This document shows, piece after piece, positions 2,324-19,133 of a stretch of 64,000 nt of DNA; the first letter of the stretch is position 1; each line of letters opens with the position of its first letter. The translations under genes and the position numbers were made by a program. The stretch covers positions 954,617 to 1,018,616 of the forward strand of contig CP064974.1 of NCBI GenBank assembly GCA_016699385.1. The letters run 5' to 3'. The stretch comes from Candidatus Moraniibacteriota bacterium (GTDB lineage: Bacteria; Patescibacteriota; Minisyncoccia; Moranbacterales; UBA1568). The notes under the pieces are model-generated. The model saw nothing but the letters and a program-made list of their open reading frames with translations. It did not search any database and had not been told where the DNA came from.

Positions 2324-3466
2324 TTGCTTTTGCACAAAGGGAATACTCATATTCACCGCTTTCAAAGAAAAGGTGTTGTTTATCTCAAACAACACAAGAC
2401 CGTTCGGATTCTCCACCTTTTTCGTCAATACTCTGCGCTCACCGTCGTCGTGTCGAGTGCTTTTCTCGTCACCGGAACCAATATCGCTACACATGAGCAA
2501 CCCGGAAGCATGCTTTCCGGCTACTTTCACACCGAAAACGCCGACGCGCAGCAATTTCCCATGAAAAGCCCTGCGAAACGCGAAAGCCTCTCATCAGCCC
2601 CACTTGCCTTTGCCTCCAACACTGTCGACACTGAAGCGAAACTCGAAGACCCTTCAGAAATAGACGCGCCAAGCAACACTATTATTGCTTCCTCAGACCT
2701 TGCTCCCGTCATTCAAGAAGACCCTGAGGAAGGCGAGGGAGTCAAAATATACACCATCCAAGAAGGTGATACCCTTGGGAAAATTGCCCAGGATCACAAT
2801 ATCACAATCAATACTATCCTTTGGGCAAACGACATTAGCAATATTGATGAGATTCGCCCTGGCGACCAGATATTCATTCTCCCTATCGCTGGACTCAAAT
2901 ACATCGTCAAAGAAGGCGACACCATACAAGATATTGCCAAGACATACCATGGCGACACTGAGCGCATTATCGCCTTCAACAACCTCCCCGCCAATGGTCG
3001 ACTAGAGACTAACCAAGAGCTTATTATCCCCGACGGCTACAAAGACACACCAAAGCCTGCATCTGACAGCCTCCTCGATCGTCGCCAATATGCCACATCG
3101 AGCGGCGGAGCAGCAACAGACATCTCCGGCTGGCGCACCCTGAGTGGCAAAGCCGGCACAGGACACACCTTCCCTTATGGCTATTGCACCTGGTATGTCG
3201 CTCAAAAACGCTATGTACCATGGGGAGGAAACGCTGGTACCTGGCTCTACAATGCCAAGGCGCTTGGGTATAAAACCGGGAAATCACCACGAGTTGGCTC
3301 TATTGTCGTCACCACAGAAAACCGCTATTACGGACACGTCGCCCTTGTAGAGAAAGTGCTTGATGATTCTATTATCGTAAGTGAAATGAACTATGTCGGC
3401 TGGGGGAAAACTGACCGACGCACCATTTCTTTGTCAAATAGAAGTATAAAGGGATATGTTTATTAA
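2324..3466 (+). CDS. Secreted peptidoglycan hydrolase with two LysM repeats and a C-terminal CHAP domain. It is the candidate VirB1/PrgK-like hydrolase of the adjacent T4SS-like locus.
   Basis: Two LysM-like repeats (YTIQEGDTLGKIAQDHNITINTILWAN; YIVKEGDTIQDIAKTYHGDTERIIAFNNL). The CHAP core is GYCTWYVAQKRY...YYGHVALVEKV (Cys...His). A hydrophobic segment (ALTVVVSSAFLVTG) follows a basic N-region, so signal/anchor-like. The ORF-track start is a TTG, so the true start is uncertain. Confidence 0.8.
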   Translation: MLLHKGNTHIHRFQRKGVVYLKQHKTVRILHLFRQYSALTVVVSSAFLVTGTNIATHEQPGSMLSGYFHTENADAQQFPMKSPAKRESLSSAPLAFASNTVDTEAKLEDPSEIDAPSNTIIASSDLAPVIQEDPEEGEGVKIYTIQEGDTLGKIAQDHNITINTILWANDISNIDEIRPGDQIFILPIAGLKYIVKEGDTIQDIAKTYHGDTERIIAFNNLPANGRLETNQELIIPDGYKDTPKPASDSLLDRRQYATSSGGAATDISGWRTLSGKAGTGHTFPYGYCTWYVAQKRYVPWGGNAGTWLYNAKALGYKTGKSPRVGSIVVTTENRYYGHVALVEKVLDDSIIVSEMNYVGWGKTDRRTISLSNRSIKGYVY

Positions 3467-3548: not shown

Positions 3549-4193
3549 AACTCGCCCTTTACGCTAGATAACAATAATCTCCCATTTAAGTCGCCAAACA
3601 AAAAGTTCTACCATTCTGAGAGAAATTGAGGAATCCAACCTTTCAAGAAGCATCCCCTCTATCTCCTCAATTGAGATTCCGATCTGTCAACGGAGTAGAC
3701 CATTCACGCTAATACCTCAGATGGCGCGCACTCTCGTAGCAATAAAAGAAGATGAAGTGCTTTTGAAAATTATCCACATAGTCCTATACCTTTGCATCTC
3801 TCCTTACTAAACAGACACGTTTGTTTATATCCTGTGTACAACTAGGGTATTCCTTGTGAAAAAGTCTGGAAAAACTCTGTGCATTACTCACACAAAACGT
3901 GCACAAACCAACCACTACATCCACCAAGACAGCAAGATCATCTCATACACACTGACTCACCACATATCACCTCATTTGAAAAAGGTGAGAATACCCGCAC
4001 ATTCTCCACTTCTCCACTTCTCCACCGAACTAATAGTAATAATATTAAAAAATATTAAAAAAACAGTTACTGATTAATGCAAGGGGAGATACTTTGTGAA
4101 CTCATTTAGGAGAAAAGTAAAGGAAATTTCTCTTATCAAGGGATAGGTGCTCTGCGTTGTAGTTGAAGTGACACGTGGATATTTTGGAATTCC

Positions 4194-4218
4194 TTGACAG
4201 GTGTTTTCGTGGTATACT
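4194..4218 (+). promoter_or_regulatory. Extended -10 promoter for the T4SS-like gene cluster
   Basis: TTGACA...TGgTATACT (TGn extended -10). Located inside the 5' part of the longest ORF 4175..6217, which argues that the real start codon lies downstream. Confidence 0.4.
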
Positions 4219-4252
4219 TTCCACTAGAAAACTGTTTTTGTTTTTTTGTTGT

Positions 4253-6252: not shown

Positions 6253-7605
6253 ATGATTTACCTAAAACTTACTGACGATCAAAAAATAGCTAAGGCAAGT
6301 ACGCCGGTGCTTGTTTGGGCTACTAAGAATCCAGATGATGAAACGAGAGAGCAAGTTATTGAAAATCATGAACGATTTCGGAAGCTCCCATTTGAAGCGA
6401 AGTATAAACTTGGGTTCCAATATACTCCTGAGGTTATTAAGAAAATAGGGGAAGAGTTTGGAATGGATCCTTTGAAGTTAGCAAGTATTTCACGAGCACT
6501 TCGTAATTTCTATTTTGGTGATATAAAAAAAGGGGATATTTCCAGATTTTTAGGGGAAGAAATGGAGATATCATTGGAGCAAGCGAATAGGGTAGCTAAT
6601 ACTATAATAAAGAGGATTATTGAGGCTCCTATTCCAAAAGAGGCTTCTGAACAAGTGGATAATCTTCCACTTCTTGATGCGATTGCGAAGTATCAGCGGC
6701 TCTCTGAGCAGACGGTGACGGAGGATCGTATTGTGGTGAAGGGGGAATCTTCGCCGGTTCGCGGGTCTCTTCGCAATTGGTTGCGACATTATCGTGATGT
6801 GGTGGGTATACGGAAGCATTCTACGATGGAGAGGGGACAATTTCTTTTTCAGGGGGATAATACCAAGCGGCTTTCTGCAATAGAGCGAGAAAGAGTTTCT
6901 TTTCTTTTGAAGTCACTTGATGAGAATACGCCAGTATCAATCGATACTGATCGGCAAGAAATAATCTTTCCAGCATTTGAGGAAAGAGGAAATGCTGCGT
7001 CTGCGACCACAGCGGAGAGAGTGGTTCCAGCATTAGAGACTTCTTTTCGACCGCTCGAGAAGTTTCCAGCGCAGGCAGCGCCAATTCGAAAGGCGCTTGA
7101 GTGGAATAGAGAAGAGGTGAGAGGAAATGTTCTTCCTGAAAAGCGCTCGGAAGTATCGCAACAGAAGGCATCCACAACTGAAGTGGCAGCGCCTTTTGGA
7201 AATATTGCGCAACAGCCTTTTCCGGAAGCGGCAAAGTCACGAGCGGTTGGTGTATCGGCGCCGGTATATACACCTGCTTCTCCTCCTGTAGCATCGGGAG
7301 CCCCCATTCCTCAGCAGGGAAATATGAGCTTTAGCTCGAGTCATGTGCTCCCGCATGAGAAAGCGATTGCGGAGGCAAGTGCTCCGTCGCAGGATGCGCC
7401 AGTGCAGCAGAGTCCTCCTTCGAGTGTTCCGGAGAGTCCTCGTGAGCCAGAAGCGATTAGTGTGATTCGGCCGCGCGGGAATCATTCTGGATTTCGTGGA
7501 GGCGCTGAGAAAGAAACAGTAGCGTTGCCAGAGGGTAGCTCTGATGCTCCGCGTGTGGTAAACTTACGGAGTTCGGGAGGGAGAAACGCGCGAGGTCGAG
7601 TGTAA
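6253..7605 (+). CDS. Hypothetical protein of the T4SS-like locus. Soluble, with a Pro/Ser/Ala-rich C-terminal half.
   Basis: No recognisable motif. The N-terminal ~230 aa are globular-looking and the C-terminal ~200 aa are low-complexity (PASPPVASGAPIPQQG...). Its stop codon overlaps the next start as TAATG. Confidence 0.5.
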   Translation: MIYLKLTDDQKIAKASTPVLVWATKNPDDETREQVIENHERFRKLPFEAKYKLGFQYTPEVIKKIGEEFGMDPLKLASISRALRNFYFGDIKKGDISRFLGEEMEISLEQANRVANTIIKRIIEAPIPKEASEQVDNLPLLDAIAKYQRLSEQTVTEDRIVVKGESSPVRGSLRNWLRHYRDVVGIRKHSTMERGQFLFQGDNTKRLSAIERERVSFLLKSLDENTPVSIDTDRQEIIFPAFEERGNAASATTAERVVPALETSFRPLEKFPAQAAPIRKALEWNREEVRGNVLPEKRSEVSQQKASTTEVAAPFGNIAQQPFPEAAKSRAVGVSAPVYTPASPPVASGAPIPQQGNMSFSSSHVLPHEKAIAEASAPSQDAPVQQSPPSSVPESPREPEAISVIRPRGNHSGFRGGAEKETVALPEGSSDAPRVVNLRSSGGRNARGRV

Positions 7606-8084
7606 TGTGTTTGTTTGGGAAAAAGGTAAATGTTTTCAATGTGAGAGTGTTTGCGTGTAGAAAAGATATCATTGGAATGCGCTCTATGCTCTTCAATGTC
7701 CCACAATTTATTGATGTTGAAGATAAAGTAGCAGGCCCACTCACTGCCAAGCAAATACTCTGGATGGTTGGGATGGGCGGCGTATTGTTTATTGTGTGGA
7801 CATTCTTTGATACGACGACGTTCTTTGTGTTGTCTCTTCCGATTATTATTCTCTTTGTACTCTTTGCCTTCTATCGTCCTTACAATCAGTCACTCCTCTT
7901 TTTCTCTGTGAATGCGGTCATGTTTTTCTTCCGACCAAAGGTATATACCTGGGATCGCCCGGGTGTGGTGAAGAATGACATTGTGAAGCCGAAAGAAGAG
8001 AAGGTGATAATAGGTCCGAAGTCACTGTCAATCGAGGAGATACAATCATTGGCGAAGGCGGTTGATGGTGGGAAGAGTCGATAA
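7605..8084 (+). CDS. PrgI/VirB3-like small T4SS membrane protein
   Basis: Motif IDVEDKVAGPLTAKQILWMVGMGGVLFIVW (the family has KIfFGLTxRQ before two TM helices) and a later FFFRPKVYTWD. The ATG overlaps the upstream stop (TAATG), suggesting translational coupling. An alternative start is MRSMLF at ~7677. Confidence 0.5.
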   Translation: MCLFGKKVNVFNVRVFACRKDIIGMRSMLFNVPQFIDVEDKVAGPLTAKQILWMVGMGGVLFIVWTFFDTTTFFVLSLPIIILFVLFAFYRPYNQSLLFFSVNAVMFFFRPKVYTWDRPGVVKNDIVKPKEEKVIIGPKSLSIEEIQSLAKAVDGGKSR

Positions 8085-8203: not shown

Positions 8204-8926
8204 ATGGATAAAATCTCTCTACCTATGGAAACTCTGAGTGATACCAAAAAACCAGCAGCGCAAGATTCAGCATCGAGCACGCAACGCTATGTGGAGGTTG
8301 AAGAGGTGCGCGATGGGGTGATTGTGCTCAAGAACGGAGCGTTTCGCTCGGTGCTTCTGGTATCATCACTCAACTTTGATCTCAAGTCCGCAGAGGAACA
8401 AGATGCTATCATTTTGCAGTATCAGAATTTTCTCAATTCTCTTGATTTCCCGGTTCAGATAGTTGTTTCTTCGCGACGATTTGATATTCGTCCCTACATT
8501 GAAGTATTGAAAGACAAAGAGAATCACCAGAGGAATGAATTGTTGCGACTTCAGATCTCTGAGTATCAGAATTTTATCAAAAGTCTTTCGGAAGTATCGA
8601 ATATCATGTCGAAATTTTTCTATATTGTGATACCGTTTTCTCCTGTTGAAGATAAGGAAAAAGGGCTATTTCATAGTTTGACGACACTTTTCAATCCGGC
8701 AGGAGCGATTACCGAACGTCGAGAGTTTTTTGAAACCTACAAGAATCAGTTGTGGCAGAGGGTGGATCATGTGAGCTTCAGCCTGTCGCAGACGGGGCTC
8801 AAAGTGGCACCACTTAATACTGAAGAATTGATTGAATTACTTTACAACTCCTACAATCCATCGCTTTTTACAACGCGGCTGACAAAGAATATTGAGGCGA
8901 TTGATTTGGCGGTTGAAAAAGTATAG
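8204..8926 (+). CDS. VirB4/TraE/PrgJ N-terminal domain as a separate ORF (first part of a split VirB4)
   Basis: RDGVIVLKNGAFRSVLLVSSLNFDLKSAEEQDAIILQYQNFLNSLDFPVQIVVSSRR matches the conserved N-terminal region of Gram-positive VirB4 homologues (Tn916 Orf16 / PrgJ type). It ends 98 nt before the ATPase ORF and is in a different frame. Confidence 0.6.
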   Translation: MDKISLPMETLSDTKKPAAQDSASSTQRYVEVEEVRDGVIVLKNGAFRSVLLVSSLNFDLKSAEEQDAIILQYQNFLNSLDFPVQIVVSSRRFDIRPYIEVLKDKENHQRNELLRLQISEYQNFIKSLSEVSNIMSKFFYIVIPFSPVEDKEKGLFHSLTTLFNPAGAITERREFFETYKNQLWQRVDHVSFSLSQTGLKVAPLNTEELIELLYNSYNPSLFTTRLTKNIEAIDLAVEKV

Positions 8927-9024: not shown

Positions 9025-10845
9025 ATGCGAGTCCCCTTTCTCTCCTCTTTGGGAGGAGAACAGAACGAAATATTGGAAAGTGAAGCGCTCTACCAGCGTG
9101 GCATAGCGCGTATTCGAGATCTTATCGCGCCGTCCGCTATCAAGGTAAGCGCGAATTCGTTGCAATCCGGTGAGACGCTTGTGCGGACACATTTCATTAT
9201 TGCTTATCCACGATATCTCAATACTAACTGGTTTTCACCGGTTGTGAATTTGGACTTTCCTATGGATACCGCGATGTTTGTGCATCCAATCGACACGCGA
9301 GATATATTGCGCAATCTCCTGAAGTCGGCGACACGCGTTGAGTCATCCATTCAAATAGAATCGGAGGCGGGAAAAGTTCGCAGTCCCGTGCTCGAGACAG
9401 CACTTCATGATATCGAGGAATTGCGCGATCGACTTCAGCAAGGAACAGAGAAATTTTTCCGTTTCAGTATCTATATTTCCCTCTACGCGCAGTCAATCGA
9501 AGAGCTCAATCGCATGAGTCGCTCTATCGAGGCGATGCTTGAATCCCAATTGGTCTATATCAAGCCAGCAGTCTTGCGTATGCAGCAGGGCTTTACTTCG
9601 ACCCGCCCTGTTGGCATGGATACACTCGATGTCGCGAATAATCTCAATACAGCGCCACTTTCAACGACTTTCCCCTTTGTGTCCGCCGATCTTTCTTCGA
9701 ATGACGGTATACTTTACGGCATCAATCGGCACAATAACAGCCTCATCCTCTTTGATCGGTTTAAGCTTGAGAATGCGAACATGGTGATATTTGCGAAGTC
9801 CGGCGCCGGGAAAAGTTATTTTATGAAGCTGGAAATCTTGCGATCGATGATGTTTGATACGAGCGTCATTGTGATTGATCCGGAAAATGAATACAAGCAC
9901 CTTGCCGAGACGGTAGATGGCTCGTTTATTCACATGAGCTTAAATTCCCCTTTTCATATTAACCCTTTTGATTTGCCAAAGAAGCGCGATGATCAAGAGG
10001 ACTTCGAGGGGCTCTTGCGGAGCAATATCGCAACCTTGATTGGACTCCTCCATCTCATGCTCGGCAGTGTCACTGCTGAGGAGGACTCGATACTCGATCA
10101 GGCGCTTCGCGAGACGTACGCGGTGCGTGATATTACTGGGAAAACGGATCTCTCGACGCTTACCCCATCATCATTTCCAACGATGAGTGACCTTTATGAA
10201 GTTTTGCGGAACATGGAGGGGACAGAGTCGCTGGCTGCTCGGCTGGAGAAGTATACACAAGGTATTTTCTCGGGATTTCTGAATCATTCAAGCAATATCA
10301 CCATGCAGAATCAGTTCGTGGTGTTCAATATTCGCGATTTGGAAGAAGAATTGCGCCCGATTGCCATGTATCTCATCTTGCATTATATCTGGAATGAGAT
10401 GCGCTCGGAGTTGAAACGGCGACTTGTTGTCGTGGATGAAGCATGGATTATGATGCAAAACGACGATGCAGCGAGCTTTCTCTTCGGTATTGCGAAGCGC
10501 GCGCGAAAATACTATTGCGGACTTACAACCATCACGCAGGACATCAGCGACTTCATGGGTTCGAGGTATGGAAAGCCAATCGTGACCAACTCGTCGCTTC
10601 AGCTTTTGCTCCGTCAGTCGCCAGCGTCAATTGATGTGGTGACAGAGACCTTCTATCTGACGGATCATGAGAAATTCTTGCTTTTGGAGAGCGCTGTTGG
10701 TGAGGGCATTTTCTTTGCCGGATCGAAACACGTCGCAATCAAAGTGGTGGCATCGTATAGTGAAGACCAGATTATTACCTCGAATCCAGAACAACTCGTA
10801 GAAATAGAGGCAGCGAAGCGCGAATTTGACGAACAAGGTGGTTGA
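9025..10845 (+). CDS. virB4: VirB4/TrsE/PrgJ-family conjugal-transfer-type ATPase (central and C-terminal ATPase part)
   Basis: Walker A VIFAKSGAGKSYFMK; Walker B-like LVVVDEAWIMM. Also IAPSAIKVSANSLQSGETLVRTHFIIAYPRYLNTNWFSPVVNLD and the C-terminal TTITQDISDF, all typical VirB4/CagE/TrbE. Confidence 0.85.
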   Translation: MRVPFLSSLGGEQNEILESEALYQRGIARIRDLIAPSAIKVSANSLQSGETLVRTHFIIAYPRYLNTNWFSPVVNLDFPMDTAMFVHPIDTRDILRNLLKSATRVESSIQIESEAGKVRSPVLETALHDIEELRDRLQQGTEKFFRFSIYISLYAQSIEELNRMSRSIEAMLESQLVYIKPAVLRMQQGFTSTRPVGMDTLDVANNLNTAPLSTTFPFVSADLSSNDGILYGINRHNNSLILFDRFKLENANMVIFAKSGAGKSYFMKLEILRSMMFDTSVIVIDPENEYKHLAETVDGSFIHMSLNSPFHINPFDLPKKRDDQEDFEGLLRSNIATLIGLLHLMLGSVTAEEDSILDQALRETYAVRDITGKTDLSTLTPSSFPTMSDLYEVLRNMEGTESLAARLEKYTQGIFSGFLNHSSNITMQNQFVVFNIRDLEEELRPIAMYLILHYIWNEMRSELKRRLVVVDEAWIMMQNDDAASFLFGIAKRARKYYCGLTTITQDISDFMGSRYGKPIVTNSSLQLLLRQSPASIDVVTETFYLTDHEKFLLLESAVGEGIFFAGSKHVAIKVVASYSEDQIITSNPEQLVEIEAAKREFDEQGG

Positions 10846-10906
10846 AATGATGTCTACTACTTCAAAGTGAAATGAAAGAAGTGGGCATTTGCTTGTATAT
10901 ATACCT

Positions 10907-11587
10907 ATGGCAGTTGCTCGTGTTGCGGTGAATGGTCGTGATAATTTTGCTCTTGAGCAGGCTGCTAAAGAAGAGCGAATGCTTTTTCGTGAGCAGCGAG
11001 AGCGCTTGCGACAGGCACAACAACAGGCGCACATCATTCAAGAAGAGGCAACCATTTCGGAAGAAGAGGAATTTGAATCGGAGCATGTGGAAATGGGGCG
11101 TGCAGAACGAGTAAGTATTTTCTCCTACTCAGCACCGTTCATCGTTGCTTGTTTCAAAGATTTTCTCGATTTTACTGTTGTGCTGGCGCTCCCGGGAATA
11201 GCGACTGTGATAAGTATGTGTGCCGATATACTTATATTATTACTCCTTTTCTTCCCAAAACATCGGTATCGACTTACAACGAATGCTCGATTGATTATTA
11301 TAGATGCATTCATCTTGATGGGACTTATTCCTCTTGAAGGGCTTGCGTTTCCATTTAATCTTCTCCCATTTACGGTGGCAGCTGTTGGAATGATTTATAC
11401 CGTCGACAAGAAGTTTGTTGCTGCACGAAATTCGAAGCGCTTTGATCGAAAGAAAATGAACGCAAATCTTACCGGTGTTATTCGACAGGCAGCGGATAAT
11501 CGGAAAAGTTCTGATAAAAGCAGGGTATCTGAACGGATGCAGTCTACTTGGGATACTCCAGAATATGAAGCTACACTTGGAGCGTAA
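10907..11587 (+). CDS. Membrane protein with an acidic/Q-rich N-terminal region and three C-terminal TM helices. T4SS-locus component of unknown role.
   Basis: Sits right after virB4. Hydrophobic helices: FIVACFKDFLDFTVVLALPGIATVI, ILILLLLFFP, IIIDAFILMGLIPLEGLAF. No recognised motif. Confidence 0.45.
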   Translation: MAVARVAVNGRDNFALEQAAKEERMLFREQRERLRQAQQQAHIIQEEATISEEEEFESEHVEMGRAERVSIFSYSAPFIVACFKDFLDFTVVLALPGIATVISMCADILILLLLFFPKHRYRLTTNARLIIIDAFILMGLIPLEGLAFPFNLLPFTVAAVGMIYTVDKKFVAARNSKRFDRKKMNANLTGVIRQAADNRKSSDKSRVSERMQSTWDTPEYEATLGA

Positions 11588-11611
11588 AAGAGGCACTAAA
11601 GGGTATATTTT

Positions 11612-12313
11612 ATGGCACCTTCTGAAAGAAAATACCCGCTTATTCAGTCATGTTTGAATCGGCGATTTCTCGCGATGAATGCGATAATAGCGGCAAGTAT
11701 TGTGCTTGCGCTTTTCTTTCCGATTTCGGGCACAGTAGAGCGATTTGTTTTAGCATTTTCAACATATTTTCTACTTCCGGCAGTATTTGTCCGTTTGGTA
11801 TTGCGAGAGCCACTGTCGACATTTGGCTTTTCATGGGGGAAAAGAGGTATCTTCTCGAATGTCGCATTGATAGTGTTGAGCGTTTGCGTGTTTGGTATGT
11901 TTGTGTGGGGAGTGCTTGCGGGCACATCTTTTGGGCAAGCATTTCTGAATGTGTCTCGAGGAGCTCATGCGGCACTACATAGCGATTTCTGGGTGTTTCT
12001 CGGGTCCCTAGGATTTCTCGCGTGGTTTGTTTTTTTGAAAGAAGTTTTCTTTCGTGGATTTTTCTTGCTTTTCTGGAAACGATATGCGTATAGATGGAGT
12101 CTTGTAGCGCATTTCCTCCTCATTGCAGCTGTCTCTACAAAAGAGCTTCAAATATTTGCTGATTCGGGGAGTGGGGTGACGTTTCTATTTACCATTGTCT
12201 GGTCAGTCATCGCCTCAATACTTGCATTTGTGACAGAATCCGTGTTTGTGTCGTTCTTTTTCTCGTTGTTTTCTGCTATACTCATATCGGTTCTTGCGAT
12301 TTCGATATCATGA
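11612..12313 (+). CDS. Polytopic integral membrane protein (6-7 TM), function unknown
   Basis: Hydrophobic throughout. A KEVFFRGFF motif weakly recalls the CPBP/CAAX-protease motif 1 (EExxxR), but motifs 2 and 3 are not evident. Its stop overlaps the next gene's start (ATGA). Confidence 0.45.
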   Translation: MAPSERKYPLIQSCLNRRFLAMNAIIAASIVLALFFPISGTVERFVLAFSTYFLLPAVFVRLVLREPLSTFGFSWGKRGIFSNVALIVLSVCVFGMFVWGVLAGTSFGQAFLNVSRGAHAALHSDFWVFLGSLGFLAWFVFLKEVFFRGFFLLFWKRYAYRWSLVAHFLLIAAVSTKELQIFADSGSGVTFLFTIVWSVIASILAFVTESVFVSFFFSLFSAILISVLAISIS

Positions 12314-15018
12314 AACAAAAAGGCATTCTTTTTTCAAAAACATTTCTCGCTGCGATTTTTCTCGCTGCCTTTTTGGTATTTCCAAAAGGGGTTTCTGCTG
12401 ACATTACGGATGTGTTTGTCACCAATATGCCGACATTTTCCGGTACGGTTGAAAATTTCGAGCGTCGGTATCATCTCAATCTGGAGAGCTTGCAGAATCA
12501 GGGGGAAAACTTCAATGTCTCCTCACAAAAAGGACAATCTCCACAAGTATTGCTCTATTTCAGCCCCTCTGATCCGAAGCCGGGAACGGAGATGGAAGCA
12601 CGTGCCTTCCCTGAGTTTTTTGGGAATGAGAAGGATACACTGTATTACACGTGGTATATTCGTCGAAAAGGCTGTGATTTGAATAACTCTCCAAATGAAG
12701 AAACCCTGAAACTCTGCGATCGGGATTCGAGTCCAAGTAGCAATGACTGGAGAGTTGACCGATTTGGAAATAAACGGGTCATATCTGTTGAGGATTGGAA
12801 GATTGAAGCTATGCAGGCAATTGTTGCGGAAAGCTTTGACTCCACATGTTCGCTCAATGGCAGTCTTACTGATGAAGAGCGTGCAAACTGTGCGGAGAAT
12901 ATGTACAATCCCGATGCGCCAAGTCGGGTGAATCCGACGGGGAACAAGGGGAACGATCGCGATGCGGATGGCTACCGCGCGACTTATGGAGGTGATGGGA
13001 AATCGGGACAAAATTCCTATTGTTATATTCATGATTTTCAGGATGGGGAGAATTACGAATTGACCAGTGGGTGTGAGCATCTCTTTCCGAATAATTATAA
13101 GATAGATGGGAATGGACGTATCTTTCGTGACGGAAATATCGGAGAAAGTGACGATTCGTTTTCTATAGATGAAGAGCATTTCTGGCGTACTGATCCAGAG
13201 GACCCGAGCACTGCGCAAAATGGCAATAAGGATGAAGCAAATATAGCTGGTTTGGGACAAGGGACATTTAAGTGGACGTATCAACCCGAAGATAGAGTTG
13301 GCGTTGTTGTGGAGGGCGCTTCTCTTTATACAACGAAGTACGATGATTCGAGCATGATGATTATGTGGGCATTGCCCAAGAATGTCTGCGCGGTTGTTGG
13401 GAAAGGAACGAAGCAAATTACAACAAAAGGCTTTTCGAGTGATGCGACAGCACAGGTGACCATTAATACCTCGACGACGGATATTAATGACTGTCTGGAA
13501 GATAACCTTGTCGATCCGACAGAGGGCGCACAAGCAGAAAATGTCGACGTTTCTCTCTCGTATGCGCCGGATGCGCCTTCTGCGAAGCTTATTCCTTGGG
13601 GGGATGATACGACCGATGCCAAGCTGATTGCTCAGACAGGGGATATGTTGACGATCAATGCCGCTTCTTCAAATGTGGAGCAAAGCACGGCGCTTACCAA
13701 TTACACGTGGCGCGTTCAGGCGAGTAAAGACGGCACCTTCAATACTCGCTTCAGTGACGAGAATGTGTGGACGGATATTACGCGCGATCTCCAAACAGCA
13801 AAAAACATCAGTGTGCCAAGTGGTAACAATGTTTCTTCCCTTTCGATTAACCTCAATTTAAATAGTACTGTTTATACTGATGCGAAAACGAACACGCTTA
13901 TCCCTGGTTTTAGTGAATACTTTGTTGACGATGTGGCATATTTCCGTATTATGGTGAGCGCAACGACGAATTTTGCCGGTGCAGTCAGTCAGAGTGGATC
14001 AAGTTCGGTTGTTGTCAAAATCGTGGCGAACAAGTCTGTCGATGTCTACGATGTTGATACAGTGAAAGACTCGACAACCGGACTTGTGAGCGTCAAGCGG
14101 AATAGCACAGAACTCTGTAAGAGCAATACGTTCCAGCAAACCATTTGCCCTGTTTTGAACAATCAAGTGGTAGGCGTGTTCCTGTCGACGGGTGAGGGAG
14201 AAATCCGTGATTATGCGTGGACACTCAATGGTCAGGCGCTTACGTGTACATCCCGAGTGTCGGGCGAATGTGATGATACGAAGCAGGGAGCGGTTAATTT
14301 TTTCCCTATTTCTGGAAATGTGGGGGATATGTATATCGTGACGGTAGTTGCCAACAATGCTGAAACGGGAAAGTCATTCACAGTATCGCGACGCTTTCAG
14401 ATTGTGGATCCAGATTTTGACATTGTTTCGACTGATACTGAGGCGGCCTGGCCGAAATACCTCGGTAAGTATGTCAATCTTGATGGTTCGGAGTCTGATG
14501 ATATGAGTAAGACGTCCTTTGAGGGAGTCGTGGGAGGTGTTGCGCAATTGTCCGCAATATTCCGTCCGGAAGTGCTCGGTACATTTGTCTTGAATGGTGT
14601 CAAAGCGGGTGATGATCAAAATGAAATGATCTGGTCTATTAATGGCAACCCTTTCAAGTGGAATGACACAGGTCTCTCACTTTCGCTCGACGGGAATGTC
14701 GGCGATATCTATACCGTGACGCTCTCTGGTGCCTATAATCAACCTCGCGAGCTCCGCAAAGCGCTCTATGATATCTGGCGTATTTCTCCCTTTAGCTCTG
14801 AAACGGTGCGATTTTCGAAAGAGATTCAGATTCAATTGATTGATGGGAACAACTATCTTGGTAAGACAAAATCAAATACGTTCTTTGCATCGATTCTCTC
14901 GGCAGTACCTCCATTTGTACTTTTTTCCGTCCGACTTATTCTTTCAATGGGGCTCATCCTTCTGATTATCGGTGTAGTGTTTTCATTCGCTCCGGAAACA
15001 AAGGAAGATAGGGCGTAG
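12310..15018 (+). CDS. Large (902 aa) secreted surface protein with an N-terminal signal peptide and a C-terminal TM anchor. Unknown function.
   Basis: Signal peptide MKQKGILFSKTFLAAIFLAAFLVFPKGVSAD. The mostly Thr/Ser/Asn/Asp/Gly-rich ectodomain predicts beta-rich structure. C-terminal FFASILSAVPPFVLFSVRLILSMGLILLIIGVVF followed by a short charged tail. Sits in the T4SS-like locus. Confidence 0.65.
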   Translation: MKQKGILFSKTFLAAIFLAAFLVFPKGVSADITDVFVTNMPTFSGTVENFERRYHLNLESLQNQGENFNVSSQKGQSPQVLLYFSPSDPKPGTEMEARAFPEFFGNEKDTLYYTWYIRRKGCDLNNSPNEETLKLCDRDSSPSSNDWRVDRFGNKRVISVEDWKIEAMQAIVAESFDSTCSLNGSLTDEERANCAENMYNPDAPSRVNPTGNKGNDRDADGYRATYGGDGKSGQNSYCYIHDFQDGENYELTSGCEHLFPNNYKIDGNGRIFRDGNIGESDDSFSIDEEHFWRTDPEDPSTAQNGNKDEANIAGLGQGTFKWTYQPEDRVGVVVEGASLYTTKYDDSSMMIMWALPKNVCAVVGKGTKQITTKGFSSDATAQVTINTSTTDINDCLEDNLVDPTEGAQAENVDVSLSYAPDAPSAKLIPWGDDTTDAKLIAQTGDMLTINAASSNVEQSTALTNYTWRVQASKDGTFNTRFSDENVWTDITRDLQTAKNISVPSGNNVSSLSINLNLNSTVYTDAKTNTLIPGFSEYFVDDVAYFRIMVSATTNFAGAVSQSGSSSVVVKIVANKSVDVYDVDTVKDSTTGLVSVKRNSTELCKSNTFQQTICPVLNNQVVGVFLSTGEGEIRDYAWTLNGQALTCTSRVSGECDDTKQGAVNFFPISGNVGDMYIVTVVANNAETGKSFTVSRRFQIVDPDFDIVSTDTEAAWPKYLGKYVNLDGSESDDMSKTSFEGVVGGVAQLSAIFRPEVLGTFVLNGVKAGDDQNEMIWSINGNPFKWNDTGLSLSLDGNVGDIYTVTLSGAYNQPRELRKALYDIWRISPFSSETVRFSKEIQIQLIDGNNYLGKTKSNTFFASILSAVPPFVLFSVRLILSMGLILLIIGVVFSFAPETKEDRA

Positions 15019-15132: not shown

Positions 15133-16503
15133 ATGAAGTATCTGAAACAAATTGGGAAGATTTCTATTTTTTTACTTGGAGTCTTGGTTGTTTTCGGATT
15201 TTCTGAAAAGATGGTTTTTGGTGCGGAACCGACAACAGAAGCTGAATGTAAAGCGGTTACACCGAATGCTGGAGAATGTAGAGACGACATTGGTGTCGAC
15301 AGTTGCGCTGTTGGTGTATTGCACAAATATGGTACCTGCGGAACAGGAAAAGTCTGCTGTATTCGTTCCGGGAGTGTTGGATCAAACTGTGAAGCAAGTG
15401 GAAGAACAGGATTATGCAAAGAGAAAGATGGATGTAGTTCCTCGACTGAGGATGACCTTGGCGTTGGAAAAGACTGCCAGAAAGGAGCGCCAAATCTTCC
15501 TGATCTTACATGCTGCTCTTTAAAAAGTTCTAGTTCAAATCCAGATGTGACTTGCAATAAGCTGCAATGTGGCAATGGGATTTCTGGAACATGTATGCCG
15601 GCGTCTCCGGGTTGTGGTAATCTGACGCAGTATGGATCGTGCGGATCGAATCAACAGGGCGGATCTGTGTGTTGCATTCCAAAAGATTGTTCGCCTACGA
15701 CAACACCTACGGCGAACACATCTGGCTCCACTTCTCTCAACTATACCCCGCTTGAAAATTTGCCGGGGTTTGATGGGCAGAGTGGGGATTTCGCGACGTA
15801 TTTTGGGAATCTCTATAAATTGGCGCTGTGGATTGTGGGGATATCGGCACTTTTTATGCTCGTCGTAGGAGGATTTCTCTATCTTTCAAGTGCGGGGAAT
15901 ACCTCGCTTCTCGGCACTGCCAAGAAGTATATCTACTCCGCACTTATCGGGCTCGTGATTGCACTTATCTCATGGCTCCTCCTCGATACGATAAATGGCG
16001 ATTTGACGAATCTGAAACTGAGTGGACTGAATGGCGCAATTGGAACGAGCGGATCGAATTCTAGCTCTGGGGAAACACCAATAGCTGGGTCTGGGTCGGG
16101 TTGCAGTGGTGCAGAGACTCAATCCGGAGCACATTGCGAAGACGCGTCGCAAGCTGTTTCAGATGCACTTAAATGTATAGTTGACAAACTTGGAAGTAAG
16201 AAGATACAAATATCGAGCATTTCCGAAGATTCTGGAGGAAAGAGTCTGTTTACTCAATGTAGAGATAGCTATAGTCAACCTCCTTGTGAGCATACTACCA
16301 ACTCATGCCACTATGGTGGGAAAGCAAAAGCATCAAAATCATGTGCTGCTGATATATCAAATTCATATACGAGTAATGCTGGAGCTGCGTCGAAAGAAGA
16401 AATAAAGGTTGCTGCTCGTAGTTGTGGTACCCCTTTTATAAATGATGAGGGAAATCATGTACATATAAGTGTATCAGGTTGTGATTGTGATGGACATAAG
16501 TAG
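15133..16503 (+). CDS. Secreted Cys-rich protein carrying a VirB2/TrbC-like pilin hydrophobic core between Cys-rich ectodomains
   Basis: Signal peptide plus an N-terminal domain with two copies of a C-x-C...GxCGxGxVCCI motif. A central two-helix hydrophobic hairpin (YFGNLYKLALWIVGISALFMLVVGGFLYLSSAG...AKKYIYSALIGLVIALISWLLL) resembles TrbC/VirB2 pilins. The C-terminal Cys-rich domain has SCHYGGKA...AADI...EGNHVHIS, weakly reminiscent of LAS/M15-type zinc peptidase motifs (inference only). Confidence 0.5.
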   Translation: MKYLKQIGKISIFLLGVLVVFGFSEKMVFGAEPTTEAECKAVTPNAGECRDDIGVDSCAVGVLHKYGTCGTGKVCCIRSGSVGSNCEASGRTGLCKEKDGCSSSTEDDLGVGKDCQKGAPNLPDLTCCSLKSSSSNPDVTCNKLQCGNGISGTCMPASPGCGNLTQYGSCGSNQQGGSVCCIPKDCSPTTTPTANTSGSTSLNYTPLENLPGFDGQSGDFATYFGNLYKLALWIVGISALFMLVVGGFLYLSSAGNTSLLGTAKKYIYSALIGLVIALISWLLLDTINGDLTNLKLSGLNGAIGTSGSNSSSGETPIAGSGSGCSGAETQSGAHCEDASQAVSDALKCIVDKLGSKKIQISSISEDSGGKSLFTQCRDSYSQPPCEHTTNSCHYGGKAKASKSCAADISNSYTSNAGAASKEEIKVAARSCGTPFINDEGNHVHISVSGCDCDGHK

Positions 16504-16507
16504 GCGT

Positions 16508-17665
16508 ATGAAGAAATTTTTCATCATTACGGCGGTTTTGTTTGGAGTGTTGCTCTTGTTTTTCTTGATATATAATTTTCTTTTCAGAAATAATCCGCTT
16601 GATGGGAAGGTGCCAAATGTCGCGGTGATTCCAAATGAACCCAGTGCTTCTCCTCCGAAGCAGAGTGATGCGATGAAAGATCAGAAAATAGCGCCGCTTA
16701 CCGATGGCGAGGGAATTGTGCCGTTCTTTGATGCGAAAGATCGCGCAGTGTTCTATCTTGCACCAGATGAGAAAGCGCTCAAAGAAACTTTTCTCGCAAC
16801 GGGATTGCCGAAAACGGTGGTCAATTTCCCTTTCATTCCAAAGGATATCGTGTGGTCGCCAGATGGCGGGAAGGCATTGGTAAAGAAGAATGACACCGAG
16901 TGGGCGCTCTTTGTCCGGCAAAATGAAGGCGGATCGGGCGAATCAATGGTGTCTCTCTTGAAGCCCGGGATAGAGAGTCCGACATGGACGAGTCTTGGCG
17001 ATCGCATTGTCTACAAATATTTCGATGCGACGACAAAGAAGCGGACACTCAATATTGCCAATCCCGATGGTTCCGATTGGGGGATGATTGGAGAGACGCC
17101 GTTTCAGTTTCTTGAGATGCGCCCGGTGCCGAAGAGTTCGATGGTGGCGGTGTGGAATCGAGGAAATGCTTTTGAACGGACATCGCTCAAAGCATTGCCG
17201 ATTGTGGGCGGGGATATGCGAGAGATTTTTTCTGCCAACTATGGCGCGGACTACCTTTTTGCACCGAATGGCACGCGTATTCTCGTGTCCAATTCGATTG
17301 AGAAAGGAAGCTCGAGCATTTCCCTCGCACTTCTCAATGACCAAGGTGGTGAATATACCAATCTCTTTGTCCCGTCTCTTGTGGGGAAGGCGGTGTGGTC
17401 GAAGAATAGCCGGTTTGTCTACTACGCCCTTCCCGGGTCGATACCGGCGGGGAGTATTCTTCCGAATGACTACTATCGCAAACCGATTCTGACAATGGAC
17501 ACATTTTGGAAAGTGGATGTCGAGACCGGCGAGAAGTCACGCGTAGTGGATCCAAATGATATTGATCAGAGCTATGATGCCGAGAACCTTGTGCTCGATG
17601 CCGATGAAACCATGCTCTTCTTCCACAACCGACATGATGGGAAAATCTATCGAATCAATCTGTAG
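16508..17665 (+). CDS. N-terminally membrane-anchored beta-propeller protein (TolB/PD40-like repeats)
   Basis: N-terminal TM (FFIITAVLFGVLLLFFLIY). Repeated WSPDG / APNGTRIL / VWSKNSRFVYY type motifs typical of PD40 / WD40-like propeller blades. The start ATG is 4 nt after the upstream stop. Confidence 0.55.
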   Translation: MKKFFIITAVLFGVLLLFFLIYNFLFRNNPLDGKVPNVAVIPNEPSASPPKQSDAMKDQKIAPLTDGEGIVPFFDAKDRAVFYLAPDEKALKETFLATGLPKTVVNFPFIPKDIVWSPDGGKALVKKNDTEWALFVRQNEGGSGESMVSLLKPGIESPTWTSLGDRIVYKYFDATTKKRTLNIANPDGSDWGMIGETPFQFLEMRPVPKSSMVAVWNRGNAFERTSLKALPIVGGDMREIFSANYGADYLFAPNGTRILVSNSIEKGSSSISLALLNDQGGEYTNLFVPSLVGKAVWSKNSRFVYYALPGSIPAGSILPNDYYRKPILTMDTFWKVDVETGEKSRVVDPNDIDQSYDAENLVLDADETMLFFHNRHDGKIYRINL

Positions 17666-19087: not shown

Positions 19088-19133
19088 GGACTGATAATGG
19101 TTCAGATGGTAAGGGGTGAATTTTGGAAGTATT

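What the first reader, a model, noticed from the sequence alone, without database searches (positions are those of the whole stretch)
15133..16503. Chimeric secreted protein: Cys-rich repeat domains flanking a VirB2/TrbC-like pilin hairpin
T4SS pilins are normally ~100-aa proteins that are just a two-helix hydrophobic hairpin. Here a hairpin with the TrbC/VirB2-like spacing pattern (LALWIVGISALFMLVVGGFLYLSSAG ... AKKYIYSALIGLVIALISWLL) is embedded in a 456-aa protein. A signal peptide and two copies of a C-x-C...GxCGxGxVCCI disulfide-rich module precede it. A C-terminal Cys-rich module follows, and its SCHYGGKA...AADI...EGNHVHIS pattern loosely recalls His/Asp/His zinc-peptidase (LAS/M15) motifs. 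A pilin with built-in extracellular adhesin or hydrolase-like heads would be an unusual architecture.
Basis: inference. Interest (0 to 1): 0.6.

Follow-up and report, generated by a model that had tools for sequence, protein, structure and literature searches.

The report
Pilin carrying swappable cell-wall-cutting heads
The single pilin gene of a type IV secretion system in an ultrasmall (CPR, Moranbacteria) bacterium is fused to cysteine-rich surface modules and a hedgehog-like zinc-peptidase domain, and near-identical strains have swapped this domain for unrelated ones, which points to a pilin that also cuts cell walls.

Summary
ORF 15133-16503 (+) encodes a conserved 456-aa protein. A protein differing at one residue is deposited as "pilin", Candidatus Moraniibacteriota.

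- **Order of parts:** signal peptide, three Cys-rich beta modules (1 and 3 are significant repeats), flexible linker, two-helix hairpin, Gly/Ser linker, 130-aa Cys-rich C-terminal domain.
- **Hairpin:** it passes Pfam's T4SS_pilin (PF18895) threshold and is homologous to ordinary 95-175-aa CPR pilins.
- **C-terminal domain:** it has no Pfam family. Sequence profiles hit only Hedgehog N-domains, aligning the zinc ligands. A confident AlphaFold model matches Sonic hedgehog and phage M15 murein peptidases.
- **Context:** the gene is the only recognisable pilin in a chromosomal Gram-positive-type T4SS operon (VirB6-like, PrgI, VirB4), about 9 kb from dnaA.
- **How common:** the head domain defines at least 728 clusters. 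Of the top 142, 129 carry it after a pilin hairpin. Others pair it with SLT or glucosaminidase domains.
- **Swapping:** at the same locus in related genomes the head is replaced, breaking at the linker and just after the stop codon, by an unrelated domain. Family members at the syntenic slot carry NlpC/P60 or a divergent form instead. The hairpin stays identical.

Best reading: a T4SS pilin scaffold displaying exchangeable peptidoglycan hydrolases. This is a new variant of a known kind.

The parts
15133..16503 (+). Whole gene: 456-aa pilin fusion protein (stop codon included)
   Evidence: ORF list. A deposited protein differing only at residue 433 is named 'pilin', and there are 54 relatives. 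The gene sits at the same place in related contigs.
15133..15225 (+). Predicted Sec signal peptide, residues 1-31 (MKYLKQIGK...VFGA|E)
   Evidence: Inferred from the sequence, from the hydrophobic segment 3-31 and from predicted helix 2-24. No signal-peptide predictor was available.
15232..15372 (+). Cys-rich module 1 (residues 34-80), six Cys ending in CC, beta-rich
   Evidence: Repeat of module 3: z=5.4, 0/2000 shuffles. AF2 predicts strands at pLDDT about 72-81.
15373..15528 (+). Cys-rich module 2 (residues 81-132), same six-Cys framework, divergent sequence
   Evidence: Cys positions and AF2 strands. Sequence similarity to modules 1 and 3 is not significant.
15529..15690 (+). Cys-rich module 3 (residues 133-186)
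   Evidence: Repeat of module 1. AF2 strands.
15691..15789 (+). Linker 1 (residues 187-219): disordered Thr/Ser-rich stretch, then the conserved SLNYTPLENLPGF motif
   Evidence: pLDDT below 50 for residues 190-211. Y204, E208, P211 and G212 are invariant in 29 sequences.
15790..15993 (+). T4SS_pilin hairpin: helix 220-253, loop AGNTSL 254-259, helix 260-287. K264 and K265 follow the loop.
   Evidence: Pfam PF18895 above threshold, residues 222-286. AF2 helices. Hydrophobic segments 226-255 and 265-289. Homologous to short CPR pilins. 14 synonymous and 0 amino-acid changes against L005 over window 15730-16046.
15994..16110 (+). Linker 2 (residues 288-326), Gly/Ser-rich and disordered. It holds the left breakpoint of the head cassette, between 16046 and 16047.
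   Evidence: pLDDT below 50 for residues 291-312. Similarity to L004, L005 and L006 stops at 16046.
16111..16500 (+). C-terminal head: Hedgehog/DD-peptidase (LAS, M15-like) domain, residues 327-456. Predicted zinc ligands are H393 (16309-16311), D407 (16351-16353) and H444 (16462-16464). H387 and H442 are also invariant.
   Evidence: Invariant columns. PDB sequence hits are Hedgehog N-domains only. AF2 pLDDT 86.9, pTM 0.83. Foldseek hits ShhN and phage M15 peptidases. The domain co-occurs with SLT and Glucosaminidase.
15268..15729 (+). N-terminal exchangeable cassette (Cys modules): no DNA similarity to L005 or L006, although both flanks align
   Evidence: blastn of the window against related loci.
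16047..16505 (+). C-terminal exchangeable cassette (head plus stop codon): replaced by an unrelated 'type B' head in L004, L005 and L006
   Evidence: blastn. The translated L004 ORF equals the window protein over residues 1-305 except D99E, then diverges.
4175..6217 (+). T4SS operon: polytopic VirB6/TrbL-like membrane protein (680 aa)
   Evidence: The counterpart gene in L002 and L008 carries PF19590 TrbL_3. Weak CD3337/EF1877 hit. Multiple hydrophobic segments.
7605..8084 (+). T4SS operon: PrgI (VirB3-like)
   Evidence: Pfam PF12666, E=5e-8.
8204..8926 (+). T4SS operon: TraC-like protein
   Evidence: PF26593 on the counterpart gene in L001, L002, L007 and L008.
9025..10845 (+). T4SS operon: VirB4 ATPase (CD1110 family)
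   Evidence: NCBIfam NF045971, E=3.7e-105, above its cut-off. Pfam P-loop_TraG.
10889..12313 (+). Two conserved membrane proteins of unknown role (232 and 233 aa), always upstream in the operon
   Evidence: Synteny. Hydrophobic segments. No Pfam family.
12310..15018 (+). 902-aa signal-peptide protein with a C-terminal hydrophobic anchor; the invariable upstream neighbour of the pilin fusion
   Evidence: Synteny in L001, L002, L004, L007, L008 and L036. Hydrophobic segments 4-32 and 858-898.
16508..17665 (+). Downstream 385-aa membrane-anchored protein; does not co-vary with the head type
   Evidence: 97.8% DNA identity from position 16506 onward to L004, despite the different head. Called as 383-385 aa in related contigs.
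2324..3466 (+). LysM + CHAP cell-wall hydrolase just upstream of the T4SS genes (candidate VirB1-like enzyme)
   Evidence: Pfam LysM E=1.4e-22 and CHAP E=2.6e-18.

Best explanation
The gene encodes the pilin-family subunit of a chromosomal, Gram-positive-type type IV secretion system of a Moranbacteria (CPR/Patescibacteria) cell.

**Topology (inferred).** After the signal peptide is cleaved, the two-helix T4SS_pilin hairpin sits in the membrane with its short AGNTSL...AKK loop on the cytoplasmic side. The hairpin is the part that docks to or polymerises on the T4SS. Both ends are then outside the cell.

**What is displayed.** Each end hangs on a flexible linker of about 20 residues.
- At the N-terminus are three disulfide-bonded Cys-rich modules, probably binding modules.
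- At the C-terminus is a disulfide-stabilised zinc peptidase of the LAS / Hedgehog-DD-peptidase (M15-like) type, with predicted ligands H393, D407 and H444.

**Proposed action.** I propose the head cuts peptide stems or cross-links of peptidoglycan at the point where the T4SS meets a cell wall. The wall is most likely that of the host bacterium on which the epibiont lives. The head and the N-terminal modules are exchanged by homologous recombination, using the invariant hairpin and the gene flanks as anchors, so that strains carry different wall-cutting specificities.

**Shown here:** the architecture, the family memberships, the operon context and the cassette exchange.

**Inferred:** topology, zinc binding, the peptidoglycan substrate, the host wall as target, and filament formation.
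For: **Pilin hairpin.**
- PF18895 is above its threshold.
- A helix-loop-helix is predicted.
- The hairpin is homologous to 95-175-aa CPR pilins, some of which also hit TrbC/VirB2 PF04956.
- It is the only pilin-like ORF in the window.
- It lies inside a VirB6-like/PrgI/TraC-like/VirB4 operon.

**Head is a LAS-type peptidase.**
- H387, H393, D407, H442 and H444 are invariant.
- Two profiles hit only Hedgehog N-domains in the PDB, 17 of 19 and 22 of 22 hits, with E from 0.019. H393, D407 and H444 align to the Shh zinc ligands. Those ligands are H141, D148 and H183 per PMC6027127.
- The AF2 model is confident, pLDDT 86.9.
- Its only credible PDB match is ShhNp, probability 0.97.
- The top BFVD matches are murein endopeptidase K, peptidase M15A/M15B, a cell-wall hydrolase and an endolysin.

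**Peptidoglycan link by association.**
- The same head follows an SLT domain (P0113), a Glucosaminidase domain (P0112), and pilin + SLT (P0166).
- In related family members at the same slot of the operon it is replaced by an NlpC/P60 endopeptidase.

**Extracytoplasmic location.** All 30 Cys are outside the hairpin, and KK follows the loop.

**Cassette exchange.**
- L004 is identical over residues 1-305 except D99E, then carries an unrelated head up to the stop codon.
- L005 replaces both cassettes and keeps the hairpin with 14 synonymous and 0 non-synonymous changes.

**Generality.** There are 728 50%-identity clusters with this head, and 129 of 142 top representatives have the order hairpin then head.

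**Literature.** CPR T4SSs with VirB2-like pilins are known and essential for epibiotic growth.
Against: - Each homology signal for the head is marginal on its own: HMM E 0.02-0.4, Foldseek E 0.01-0.06, TM 0.43-0.51.
- No Pfam M15 or Hedgehog model matches the head.
- The canonical H-X(6)-D spacing is not kept. Here it is H-x13-D, and the spacing varies within the family.
- No CPR T4SS pilus has ever been seen. About 20 kDa and 14 kDa of extra domains on every subunit may be incompatible with VirB2-like packing.
- A separate LysM-CHAP hydrolase lies next to the operon, so a wall-cutting role for the pilin is not strictly needed.
- The choice of host wall over own wall rests only on the diversification pattern.
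- The type B head could not be assigned to any fold.
Confidence: 0.5

Rival explanations
1. Self-directed, VirB1-like autolysin. The hairpin merely anchors the protein in the membrane next to the T4SS core. The head trims the bacterium's own peptidoglycan so that the machine can span the wall. No filament forms and no host wall is attacked.
For: - Gram-positive T4SSs need membrane-anchored multi-domain hydrolases with LytM, SLT, CHAP or NlpC/P60 domains. PrgK, TraG and CwlT are the examples (established knowledge; references listed in PMC12102498).
- P0166 (pilin + SLT + head) has exactly that layout.
- Most Patescibacteria with VirB2-like genes lack a recognisable VirB1, a gap this fusion could fill.
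- The organism makes peptidoglycan: a class A PBP is encoded at 34043-36904.
Against: - Housekeeping autolysins are not expected to be swapped for unrelated domains between strains that differ at 1 of 305 residues.
- The N-terminal modules are swapped too.
- A LysM-CHAP hydrolase is already encoded beside the operon.
- The hairpin is conserved far beyond what a simple anchor needs: 0 amino-acid changes against 20 of 385 in the downstream gene.
Confidence: 0.25
2. Non-catalytic adhesin. The Hedgehog-like head and the Cys-rich modules are ligand-binding domains, for example binding peptidoglycan or glycan, that tether the T4SS or pilus to the host surface. The zinc site would be structural.
For: - Hedgehog N-domains, the best sequence matches, act as ligands, and their peptidase activity is debated (PMC6027127).
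- The H-X(6)-D spacing is broken.
- The glutamate before the H-x-H motif (E439) is not invariant across the family alignment.
- Variable surface domains are typical of adhesins.
- No PrgB-type adhesin was found in Patescibacteria.
Against: - All three zinc ligands plus two further histidines are invariant across more than 40 diverse sequences.
- The head pairs with true glycan-cutting enzymes (SLT, Glucosaminidase) in the classic bifunctional-lysin arrangement.
- It is replaced by NlpC/P60 with an intact DCSDF...GHVVIC catalytic motif.
Confidence: 0.15
3. Polymorphic toxin or effector. The conserved N-terminal part targets the protein to the T4SS, and the variable C-terminal cassettes are antibacterial wall-degrading toxins used against competitors. 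This would resemble Xanthomonas X-Tfe effectors or CDI/Rhs C-terminal toxins.
For: - There is a sharp junction between the conserved region and the variable C-terminal cassette.
- The heads are, or replace, peptidoglycan hydrolases.
- T4SS-delivered peptidoglycan hydrolase effectors exist (established knowledge; PMC8740702 is listed but was not read).
Against: - No immunity gene co-varies with the head. The downstream gene is 97.8% identical beside a different head, and the breakpoint falls just after the stop codon, before the downstream gene's ATG.
- No orphan or silent cassettes occur in the 64-kb window.
- A two-helix membrane hairpin with a Sec signal peptide fits a membrane subunit, not a translocated soluble effector.
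Confidence: 0.1

Closest known systems
VirB2-like T4SS pilins of Patescibacteria (Pfam PF18895 T4SS_pilin), such as the essential pilin array of Southlakia epibionticum
   Same: - The same hairpin family.
- The same kind of monoderm, MPF-FATA-like, relaxase-poor chromosomal T4SS close to dnaA.
- Both are CPR-restricted as far as sampled.
   Different: - Canonical members are 95-175 aa and consist of a leader plus the hairpin.
- This protein is 456 aa, with about 150 aa of Cys-rich modules before the hairpin and a 130-aa enzyme-like domain after it.
- It is a single gene in its operon, not an array.
- The papers I read describe no such fusions.
LAS / Hedgehog-DD-peptidase zinc peptidases (MEROPS M15, including VanY/VanX-type and phage L-Ala-D-Glu or murein endopeptidases; Hedgehog N-domain; 'bacHh')
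   Same: - A conserved His...Asp...His-x-His pattern aligns to the Shh zinc ligands.
- The predicted alpha/beta fold matches ShhN and phage M15 peptidases.
- It is the C-terminal domain of larger bacterial proteins, as reported for bacHh.
   Different: - The spacing is H-x13-D instead of H-X(6)-D, and it varies within the family alignment.
- Nine cysteines lie within the domain, of which four are invariant and two more nearly invariant across 40 diverse sequences. They are presumably disulfide-bonded.
- No Pfam M15 or Hedgehog model matches.
- TM-scores are only 0.43-0.51.
- It is fused behind a pilin hairpin.
Cell-wall hydrolases of Gram-positive conjugative T4SSs (PrgK of pCF10, TraG of pIP501, CwlT of ICEBs1, TcpG)
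   Same: - Membrane-anchored and encoded in the T4SS operon.
- Built from peptidase (LytM/LAS, CHAP, NlpC/P60) and glycosidase (SLT) modules.
- Relatives here carry NlpC/P60 or SLT plus the head.
   Different: - The anchor here is a pilin-family two-helix hairpin rather than a single transmembrane helix.
- The heads are hypervariable between strains.
- A separate LysM-CHAP enzyme is also present.
RP4 TrbC / Ti VirB2 pre-pro-pilins (established knowledge)
   Same: A leader peptide plus two hydrophobic helices, with both termini periplasmic or external. TrbC carries a removable C-terminal extension.
   Different: - The extensions in TrbC are about 30 residues and are discarded.
- Here they are folded, conserved domains.
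- No sequence match to solved VirB2-type pilins was found.
- No cyclisation peptidase was identified.
Polymorphic toxin loci (CDI CdiA-CT, Rhs-CT)
   Same: A conserved body joined at a sharp junction to interchangeable C-terminal cassettes.
   Different: There is no co-varying immunity gene and there are no orphan cassettes. The N-terminal cassette is exchangeable too.

Membership tests
Pfam PF18895 T4SS_pilin | Score at or above the curated gathering threshold | tested here: met
   27.3 bits against 26.6, E=3.8e-6, residues 222-286. Relatives score up to 36 bits.
Pfam PF18895 T4SS_pilin | Two hydrophobic helices joined by a short loop | tested here: met
   AF2 helices 220-253 and 260-287. Hydrophobic segments 226-255 and 265-289.
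Pfam PF18895 T4SS_pilin | Small protein, about 100-170 aa, consisting of leader plus hairpin only | tested here: not met
   The protein is 456 aa with folded domains on both sides. Canonical relatives are 95-175 aa.
Pfam PF18895 T4SS_pilin | Encoded with T4SS core genes (VirB4, VirB3/PrgI, VirB6) | tested here: met
   Same-strand cluster with a TrbL_3-like gene, PrgI, a TraC-like gene and VirB4. The arrangement is conserved in L007 and L008.
Pfam PF18895 T4SS_pilin | Assembles into an extracellular filament | not testable with these tools
   No multimer prediction or imaging was available. CPR T4SS pili are only 'potential' in the literature.
TrbC/VirB2 pilins (PF04956) | Match to the family profile or to solved VirB2-type pilins | tested here: inconclusive
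   There is no PF04956 hit for this protein and no PDB pilin hit with the hairpin profile. Several close hairpin relatives carry both PF18895 and PF04956.
TrbC/VirB2 pilins (PF04956) | Maturation by leader removal and C-terminal trimming or cyclisation | not testable with these tools
   Needs protein chemistry.
LAS / Hedgehog-DD-peptidase (M15-like) | Zinc-ligand triad His, Asp, His conserved | tested here: met
   H393, D407 and H444 are invariant in 22 and 40 sequences. They align to Hh H/D/H, which are the ligands per PMC6027127.
LAS / Hedgehog-DD-peptidase (M15-like) | H-x-H motif | tested here: met
   H442-V-H444 is invariant.
LAS / Hedgehog-DD-peptidase (M15-like) | H-X(6)-D spacing | tested here: not met
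   The spacing from H393 to D407 is x13. The HMM alignment opens a 7-residue gap in Hedgehog. The motif definition is from PMC6027127.
LAS / Hedgehog-DD-peptidase (M15-like) | Fold similarity to solved or predicted family members | tested here: met
   - Foldseek against PDB: ShhNp 6n7g_C, probability 0.97, E=0.056, TMq 0.43, the only credible hit.
- Foldseek against BFVD: murein endopeptidase K, probability 1.00, E=9.5e-3, TMq 0.51, followed by M15A/M15B peptidases.
LAS / Hedgehog-DD-peptidase (M15-like) | Match to a curated family model (Pfam Peptidase_M15 families or Hedgehog N-domain) | tested here: not met
   No Pfam family at E up to 1 for the head alone or in the whole protein.
LAS / Hedgehog-DD-peptidase (M15-like) | Zinc binding and peptidase activity on peptidoglycan peptides | not testable with these tools
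   Needs biochemistry. The only support is indirect: fusion with SLT and Glucosaminidase, and replacement by NlpC/P60.
Polymorphic toxin systems (CDI/Rhs-type) | Variable C-terminal cassette after a conserved junction | tested here: met
   Breakpoint at 16046/16047; the protein is identical before it except D99E.
Polymorphic toxin systems (CDI/Rhs-type) | Cognate immunity gene replaced together with the toxin cassette | tested here: not met
   Similarity resumes at 16506, just after the stop codon (16501-16503), and the downstream gene is 97.8% identical.

The most novel reading that the evidence does not exclude
CPR bacteria build a T4SS filament, or a membrane stalk, in which every VirB2-like subunit carries an enzyme. 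This would be an 'enzymatic pilus' that digests the host's peptidoglycan to open the conduit through which the epibiont feeds. The strain-specific, recombination-swapped head cassettes (LAS-type, NlpC/P60, type B) and the Cys-rich binding modules would set host range. It would also explain why most Patescibacteria with VirB2-like pilins lack a separate VirB1.
Probability: 0.25. Interest if true: 0.85.

Novelty: new variant of a known kind. Interest (0 to 1): 0.65.

Why it matters
**The open question.** The T4SS is essential for the epibiotic life of the one CPR bacterium tested so far, yet its function is described as 'completely unknown'. Its VirB2-like pilins are the feature that sets it apart from other monoderm systems.

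**What this finding adds.**
- A large subfamily of these pilins carries wall-hydrolase-type domains.
- Those domains are exchanged between near-identical strains.
- Together these give a concrete, testable hypothesis: the pilin scaffold delivers peptidoglycan-cutting activity to a cell wall, and the head type tracks host specificity.

**By-products.**
- The head is an uncurated domain family of at least 728 clusters, a Cys-rich LAS/Hedgehog-like variant with an expanded His-Asp spacing.
- It is a candidate explanation for the reported lack of VirB1 in most Patescibacteria that have VirB2.

Tried and rejected
- **Type A against type B head.** Profile-profile comparison of the type A head with the 'type B' head (TYTHAEA...HFHLVF) gave probability 0.4%, so there is no detectable relation. 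The type B profile against PDB sequences gave nothing. A database search with the type B head gave only 2 hits. My impression that type B is also M15-like (VTGGTE..GH.SHG.G.P.VD...HFH) remains an untested motif resemblance.
- **Hairpin against the PDB.** The hairpin profile found no pilin among PDB sequences.
- **Full-length model.** Foldseek of the full-length model against the PDB found nothing with E below 4. The faint alpha-defensin hits to the Cys modules (probability 0.06 or less) are not evidence.
- **Searches of GTDB species representative genomes.** The head alignment had no usable conserved stretch, and the single protein found no relative. Only the full-length alignment worked.
- **Silent cassettes.** I looked in the 64-kb window for silent or orphan head cassettes and for repeats of the junction. 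There are none.
- **Second pilin.** I looked for a second pilin-like ORF in the window. There is none.
- **CPBP-protease guess.** The guess for ORF 11612-12313 (motif EVFFRG) has no Pfam support.
- **N-terminal modules.** Pfam on these modules alone gave nothing.
- **DnaA boxes.** They are not enriched in the window overall.
Full report
**1. The observation.**

ORF 15133..16503 (+) encodes 456 aa. A protein that differs only at residue 433 (T in the window, I in the deposited one) is named 'MAG: pilin [Candidatus Moraniibacteriota bacterium]'. 54 relatives were found, many covering 97-100% of the length at 39-77% identity. The gene is therefore real and conserved.

**2. Anatomy.**

A full-length AlphaFold2 model (29-sequence alignment, mean pLDDT 70.6) and the sequence itself give this order:

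| Part | Residues | Notes |
|---|---|---|
| Signal-peptide-like helix | 2-24 | likely cleavage after VFGA31 |
| Cys module 1 | 34-80 | beta-rich |
| Cys module 2 | 81-132 | beta-rich |
| Cys module 3 | 133-186 | beta-rich |
| Disordered Thr/Ser linker | 190-211 | followed by the conserved motif SLNYTPLENLPGF |
| Hairpin helix 1 | 220-253 | |
| Loop | 254-259 | AGNTSL |
| Hairpin helix 2 | 260-287 | |
| Disordered Gly/Ser linker | 291-312 | |
| Compact alpha/beta head | about 327-446 | |

- Modules 1 and 3 are a significant internal repeat (z=5.4, 0 of 2000 shuffles). Module 2 shares only the six-Cys framework ending in CC.
- All 30 cysteines lie outside the hairpin.
- Two lysines follow the loop.
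- The simplest topology is therefore: both ends outside, loop inside. This is inferred.

**3. The hairpin is a T4SS pilin hairpin.**

- Pfam PF18895 T4SS_pilin matches residues 222-286 above its curated cut-off: 27.3 against 26.6 bits, E=3.8e-6.
- NCBIfam gives a weak hit to the Mbov_0395 pilin-like conjugal transfer family.
- A profile of ten diverse hairpins of this family retrieves 554 proteins. The best are ordinary 95-175-aa PF18895 pilins (E down to 8.5e-30), and several also match TrbC/VirB2 PF04956.
- No direct match to PF04956 or to solved VirB2-type pilins was obtained for this protein. Membership in PF18895 is met. Membership in TrbC/VirB2 proper is inconclusive.

**4. Genomic context.**

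The gene sits on the same strand in a cluster with:

- a polytopic TrbL_3/VirB6-like protein
- a 453-aa protein
- PrgI (VirB3-like)
- a TraC-like protein
- a VirB4 ATPase of the CD1110 family (E=3.7e-105)
- two roughly 230-aa membrane proteins
- a 902-aa secreted, anchored protein
- a 385-aa membrane protein downstream

A LysM-CHAP hydrolase lies upstream of the cluster, and dnaA lies about 9 kb downstream of the gene.

This matches the chromosomal, MPF-FATA-like, origin-proximal T4SS described for Patescibacteria. In that group VirB2-like pilins are the distinguishing and, in one species, essential feature. The fusion is the only pilin-like ORF in the 64-kb window.

**5. The C-terminal head.**

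No Pfam family matches it. The following evidence bears on what it is.

- *Invariant residues.* An alignment of 22 heads, and a more diverse one of 40, leave H387, H393, G395, S403, D407, H442, H444 and several Cys invariant.
- *Sequence profiles.* Both profiles, searched against all PDB sequences, return Hedgehog N-terminal domains almost exclusively: 17 of 19 and 22 of 22 hits, best E 0.019 and 0.031. The alignment places SCH393YGG on SLHYEG, AAD407I on ALDIT and NH442VH444ISV on NHVHVSV.
- *Zinc ligands.* Those Hedgehog residues are the zinc ligands of the 'LAS' arrangement, H141, D148 and H183 in mouse Shh. The arrangement is shared with bacterial DD-peptidases of family M15 (PMC6027127).
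- *Fold.* The head alone folds confidently (pLDDT 86.9, pTM 0.83). Foldseek against the PDB gives ShhNp as the single credible hit (probability 0.97, E=0.056, TMq 0.43). Against BFVD the top hits are murein endopeptidase K (probability 1.00, E=9.5e-3, TMq 0.51), 'Peptidase M15A', 'M15B', 'cell wall hydrolase' and an endolysin.

Each signal is marginal. They are independent and they all point to one superfamily.

One defining feature is not met. The spacing is H-x13-D rather than H-X(6)-D, and it varies within the family. I therefore treat the head as a Cys-rich variant of the LAS fold, not as a member of a curated M15 family.

**6. Function by association.**

A profile search of 1.84 billion representative proteins finds 728 clusters with this head (492 at E of 1e-10 or better). 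The head is always C-terminal.

- Of 142 new top representatives, 129 also contain the pilin hairpin, always in the order hairpin then head. The median hairpin start is residue 53.
- The common form is therefore signal peptide, hairpin, linker, head.
- The N-terminal Cys modules (30 of 129) and Cys-rich insertions in the linker (34 of 129) are accessories.
- Among the exceptions and long forms, the head follows an SLT lytic transglycosylase (P0113), a Glucosaminidase domain (P0112), or pilin + SLT (P0166). This is the classic glycosidase-plus-peptidase layout of peptidoglycan lysins and of Gram-positive T4SS hydrolases.
- In other members of the same family the head is replaced by an NlpC/P60 endopeptidase with an intact catalytic motif.

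**7. Cassette exchange.**

The syntenic slot of the operon holds different heads in different genomes:

- type A: this window, L001-L003
- a divergent type A': L008, L009
- an unrelated type B: L004-L006
- NlpC/P60: L007

At the DNA level:

- *L004* is 96.8% identical to the window from 12024 to 16046. It shows no similarity from 16047 to 16505, and is 97.8% identical from 16506 on. Its translated ORF equals the window protein over residues 1-305 except D99E. It switches at ...LNGAIGT| to the type B head, and the right breakpoint lies just before the next gene's ATG.
- *L005 and L006* also lack similarity over 15268-15729, the Cys modules. They keep the hairpin segment at 95.6% identity, against 88-92% for the flanks.
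- The 14 differences in that hairpin segment are all synonymous. The downstream gene has 20 amino-acid changes in 385.
- No immunity-like gene co-varies with the head, and no silent cassettes occur in the window.

The gene is thus a mosaic. An invariant hairpin under strong purifying selection is flanked by two independently replaceable extracellular cassettes.

**8. Distribution.**

Relatives in GTDB species representatives come from Moraniibacteriota (including a complete 1.05-Mb genome), Parcubacteria, Paceibacterota, Saccharibacteria, Peribacteria and Abawacabacteria. A few third-party MAGs are labelled Bdellovibrionales or Gammaproteobacteria, probably wrongly.

In one lineage two long pilins lie in tandem (L037). 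In another, the block of the 900-aa protein, the pilin fusion and the 385-aa protein is kept near dnaA without VirB4 beside it (L036).

**9. Interpretation.**

- *Shown:* a T4SS_pilin-family hairpin inside a T4SS operon carries a LAS/Hedgehog-like domain and Cys-rich modules on flexible linkers. This is a large CPR family. The heads are swapped by recombination, including for a bona fide peptidoglycan endopeptidase domain.
- *Inferred:* the head is an active zinc peptidase on peptidoglycan, both ends are extracellular, and the hairpin docks to or polymerises on the T4SS.

I favour host-directed wall cutting. Unrelated heads and binding modules are exchanged between strains that are otherwise almost identical, which is the signature of an interface with another organism. 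A separate LysM-CHAP enzyme could serve the cell's own wall.

The main rival is a self-directed VirB1-like role. Lesser rivals are a non-catalytic adhesin and a polymorphic toxin. The toxin reading is disfavoured by the absence of a co-varying immunity gene.

Whether such a decorated subunit can form a VirB2-type filament is open.

**10. Novelty.**

CPR VirB2-like pilins and the LAS fold are both known, and the deposited near-identical protein is already named 'pilin'. I did not find three things in the papers I read: the pilin-hydrolase fusion as a family, the uncurated Cys-rich LAS-like head with expanded His-Asp spacing, and the strain-level cassette exchange.

I rate it a new variant of a known kind, with interest 0.65.

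Noticed in passing
window 46989-50027 (-): A 1012-aa protein with two T2SSE (PilB/GspE-type) ATPase stretches (728 bits, 2 stretches) plus an MshEN domain. It looks like a tandem or fused secretion/pilus ATPase, about twice the usual length.
   Followed up: no
window 38907-40316 (-): A 469-aa fusion of a sugar-transfer-associated ATP-grasp domain (E=4e-69) with a putative ATP-dependent zinc protease domain.
   Followed up: no
window 1-4000, 3466-4175 and 25765-25850: GC skew is negative for 1-4000 and positive for the rest of the window, even across the minus-strand genes at 17.7-25.1 kb. The switch falls near the 0.7-kb gap upstream of the T4SS genes, which holds one exact DnaA box at 3770. 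dnaA itself is at 25843-27432, with three boxes just upstream of or at its start. DnaA boxes are not enriched overall, so the origin position is unresolved.
   Followed up: partly
window 16469-17665 (+): The downstream gene most likely starts at ATG 16508 (385 aa), not at GTG 16469 (398 aa, overlapping the pilin gene). Related contigs-385 aa, and the head-cassette breakpoint lies just upstream of that ATG.
   Followed up: yes
window 12310-15018 (+): A 902-aa signal-peptide protein with a 40-residue C-terminal hydrophobic stretch (858-898) is the invariable upstream partner of the pilin fusion. This holds even in L036, where VirB4 is not adjacent. It has no Pfam family beyond a weak DUF5893 hit. 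It may be a co-functioning surface protein.
   Followed up: partly
window 11612-12313 (+): A 233-aa polytopic membrane protein in the operon has an ...KEVFFRGF... motif reminiscent of CPBP intramembrane proteases, which could be a pilin-processing candidate. No Pfam match was found at E up to 10.
   Followed up: partly
L037 31-2267: In another CPR lineage two long PF18895 pilins (314 and 402 aa) lie in tandem. The second carries the same LAS-like head. This suggests arrays of decorated pilins.
   Followed up: no
L010, L013, L015, L016, L020-L022, L030: Third-party MAGs labelled 'uncultured Bdellovibrionales' or 'Gammaproteobacteria' carry close relatives of this CPR gene, up to 73% identity. 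The taxonomic labels are probably wrong.
   Followed up: no
window 17708-19519 (-) and 19134-20384 (-): There are two adjacent Wzy_C (O-antigen ligase-like) genes. The 603-aa ORF listed from a TTG start overlaps its neighbour and is called as 459 aa in related contigs, so the long start is probably an over-extension.
   Followed up: partly
window 16429-16431 (residue 433): The window protein has Thr where the deposited NCBI protein has Ile. The window is closest to ENA contig ERZ15185891 NODE_728 (99.4% DNA identity) and is 97.7% identical to the NCBI assembly GCA_049643625.1.
   Followed up: yes
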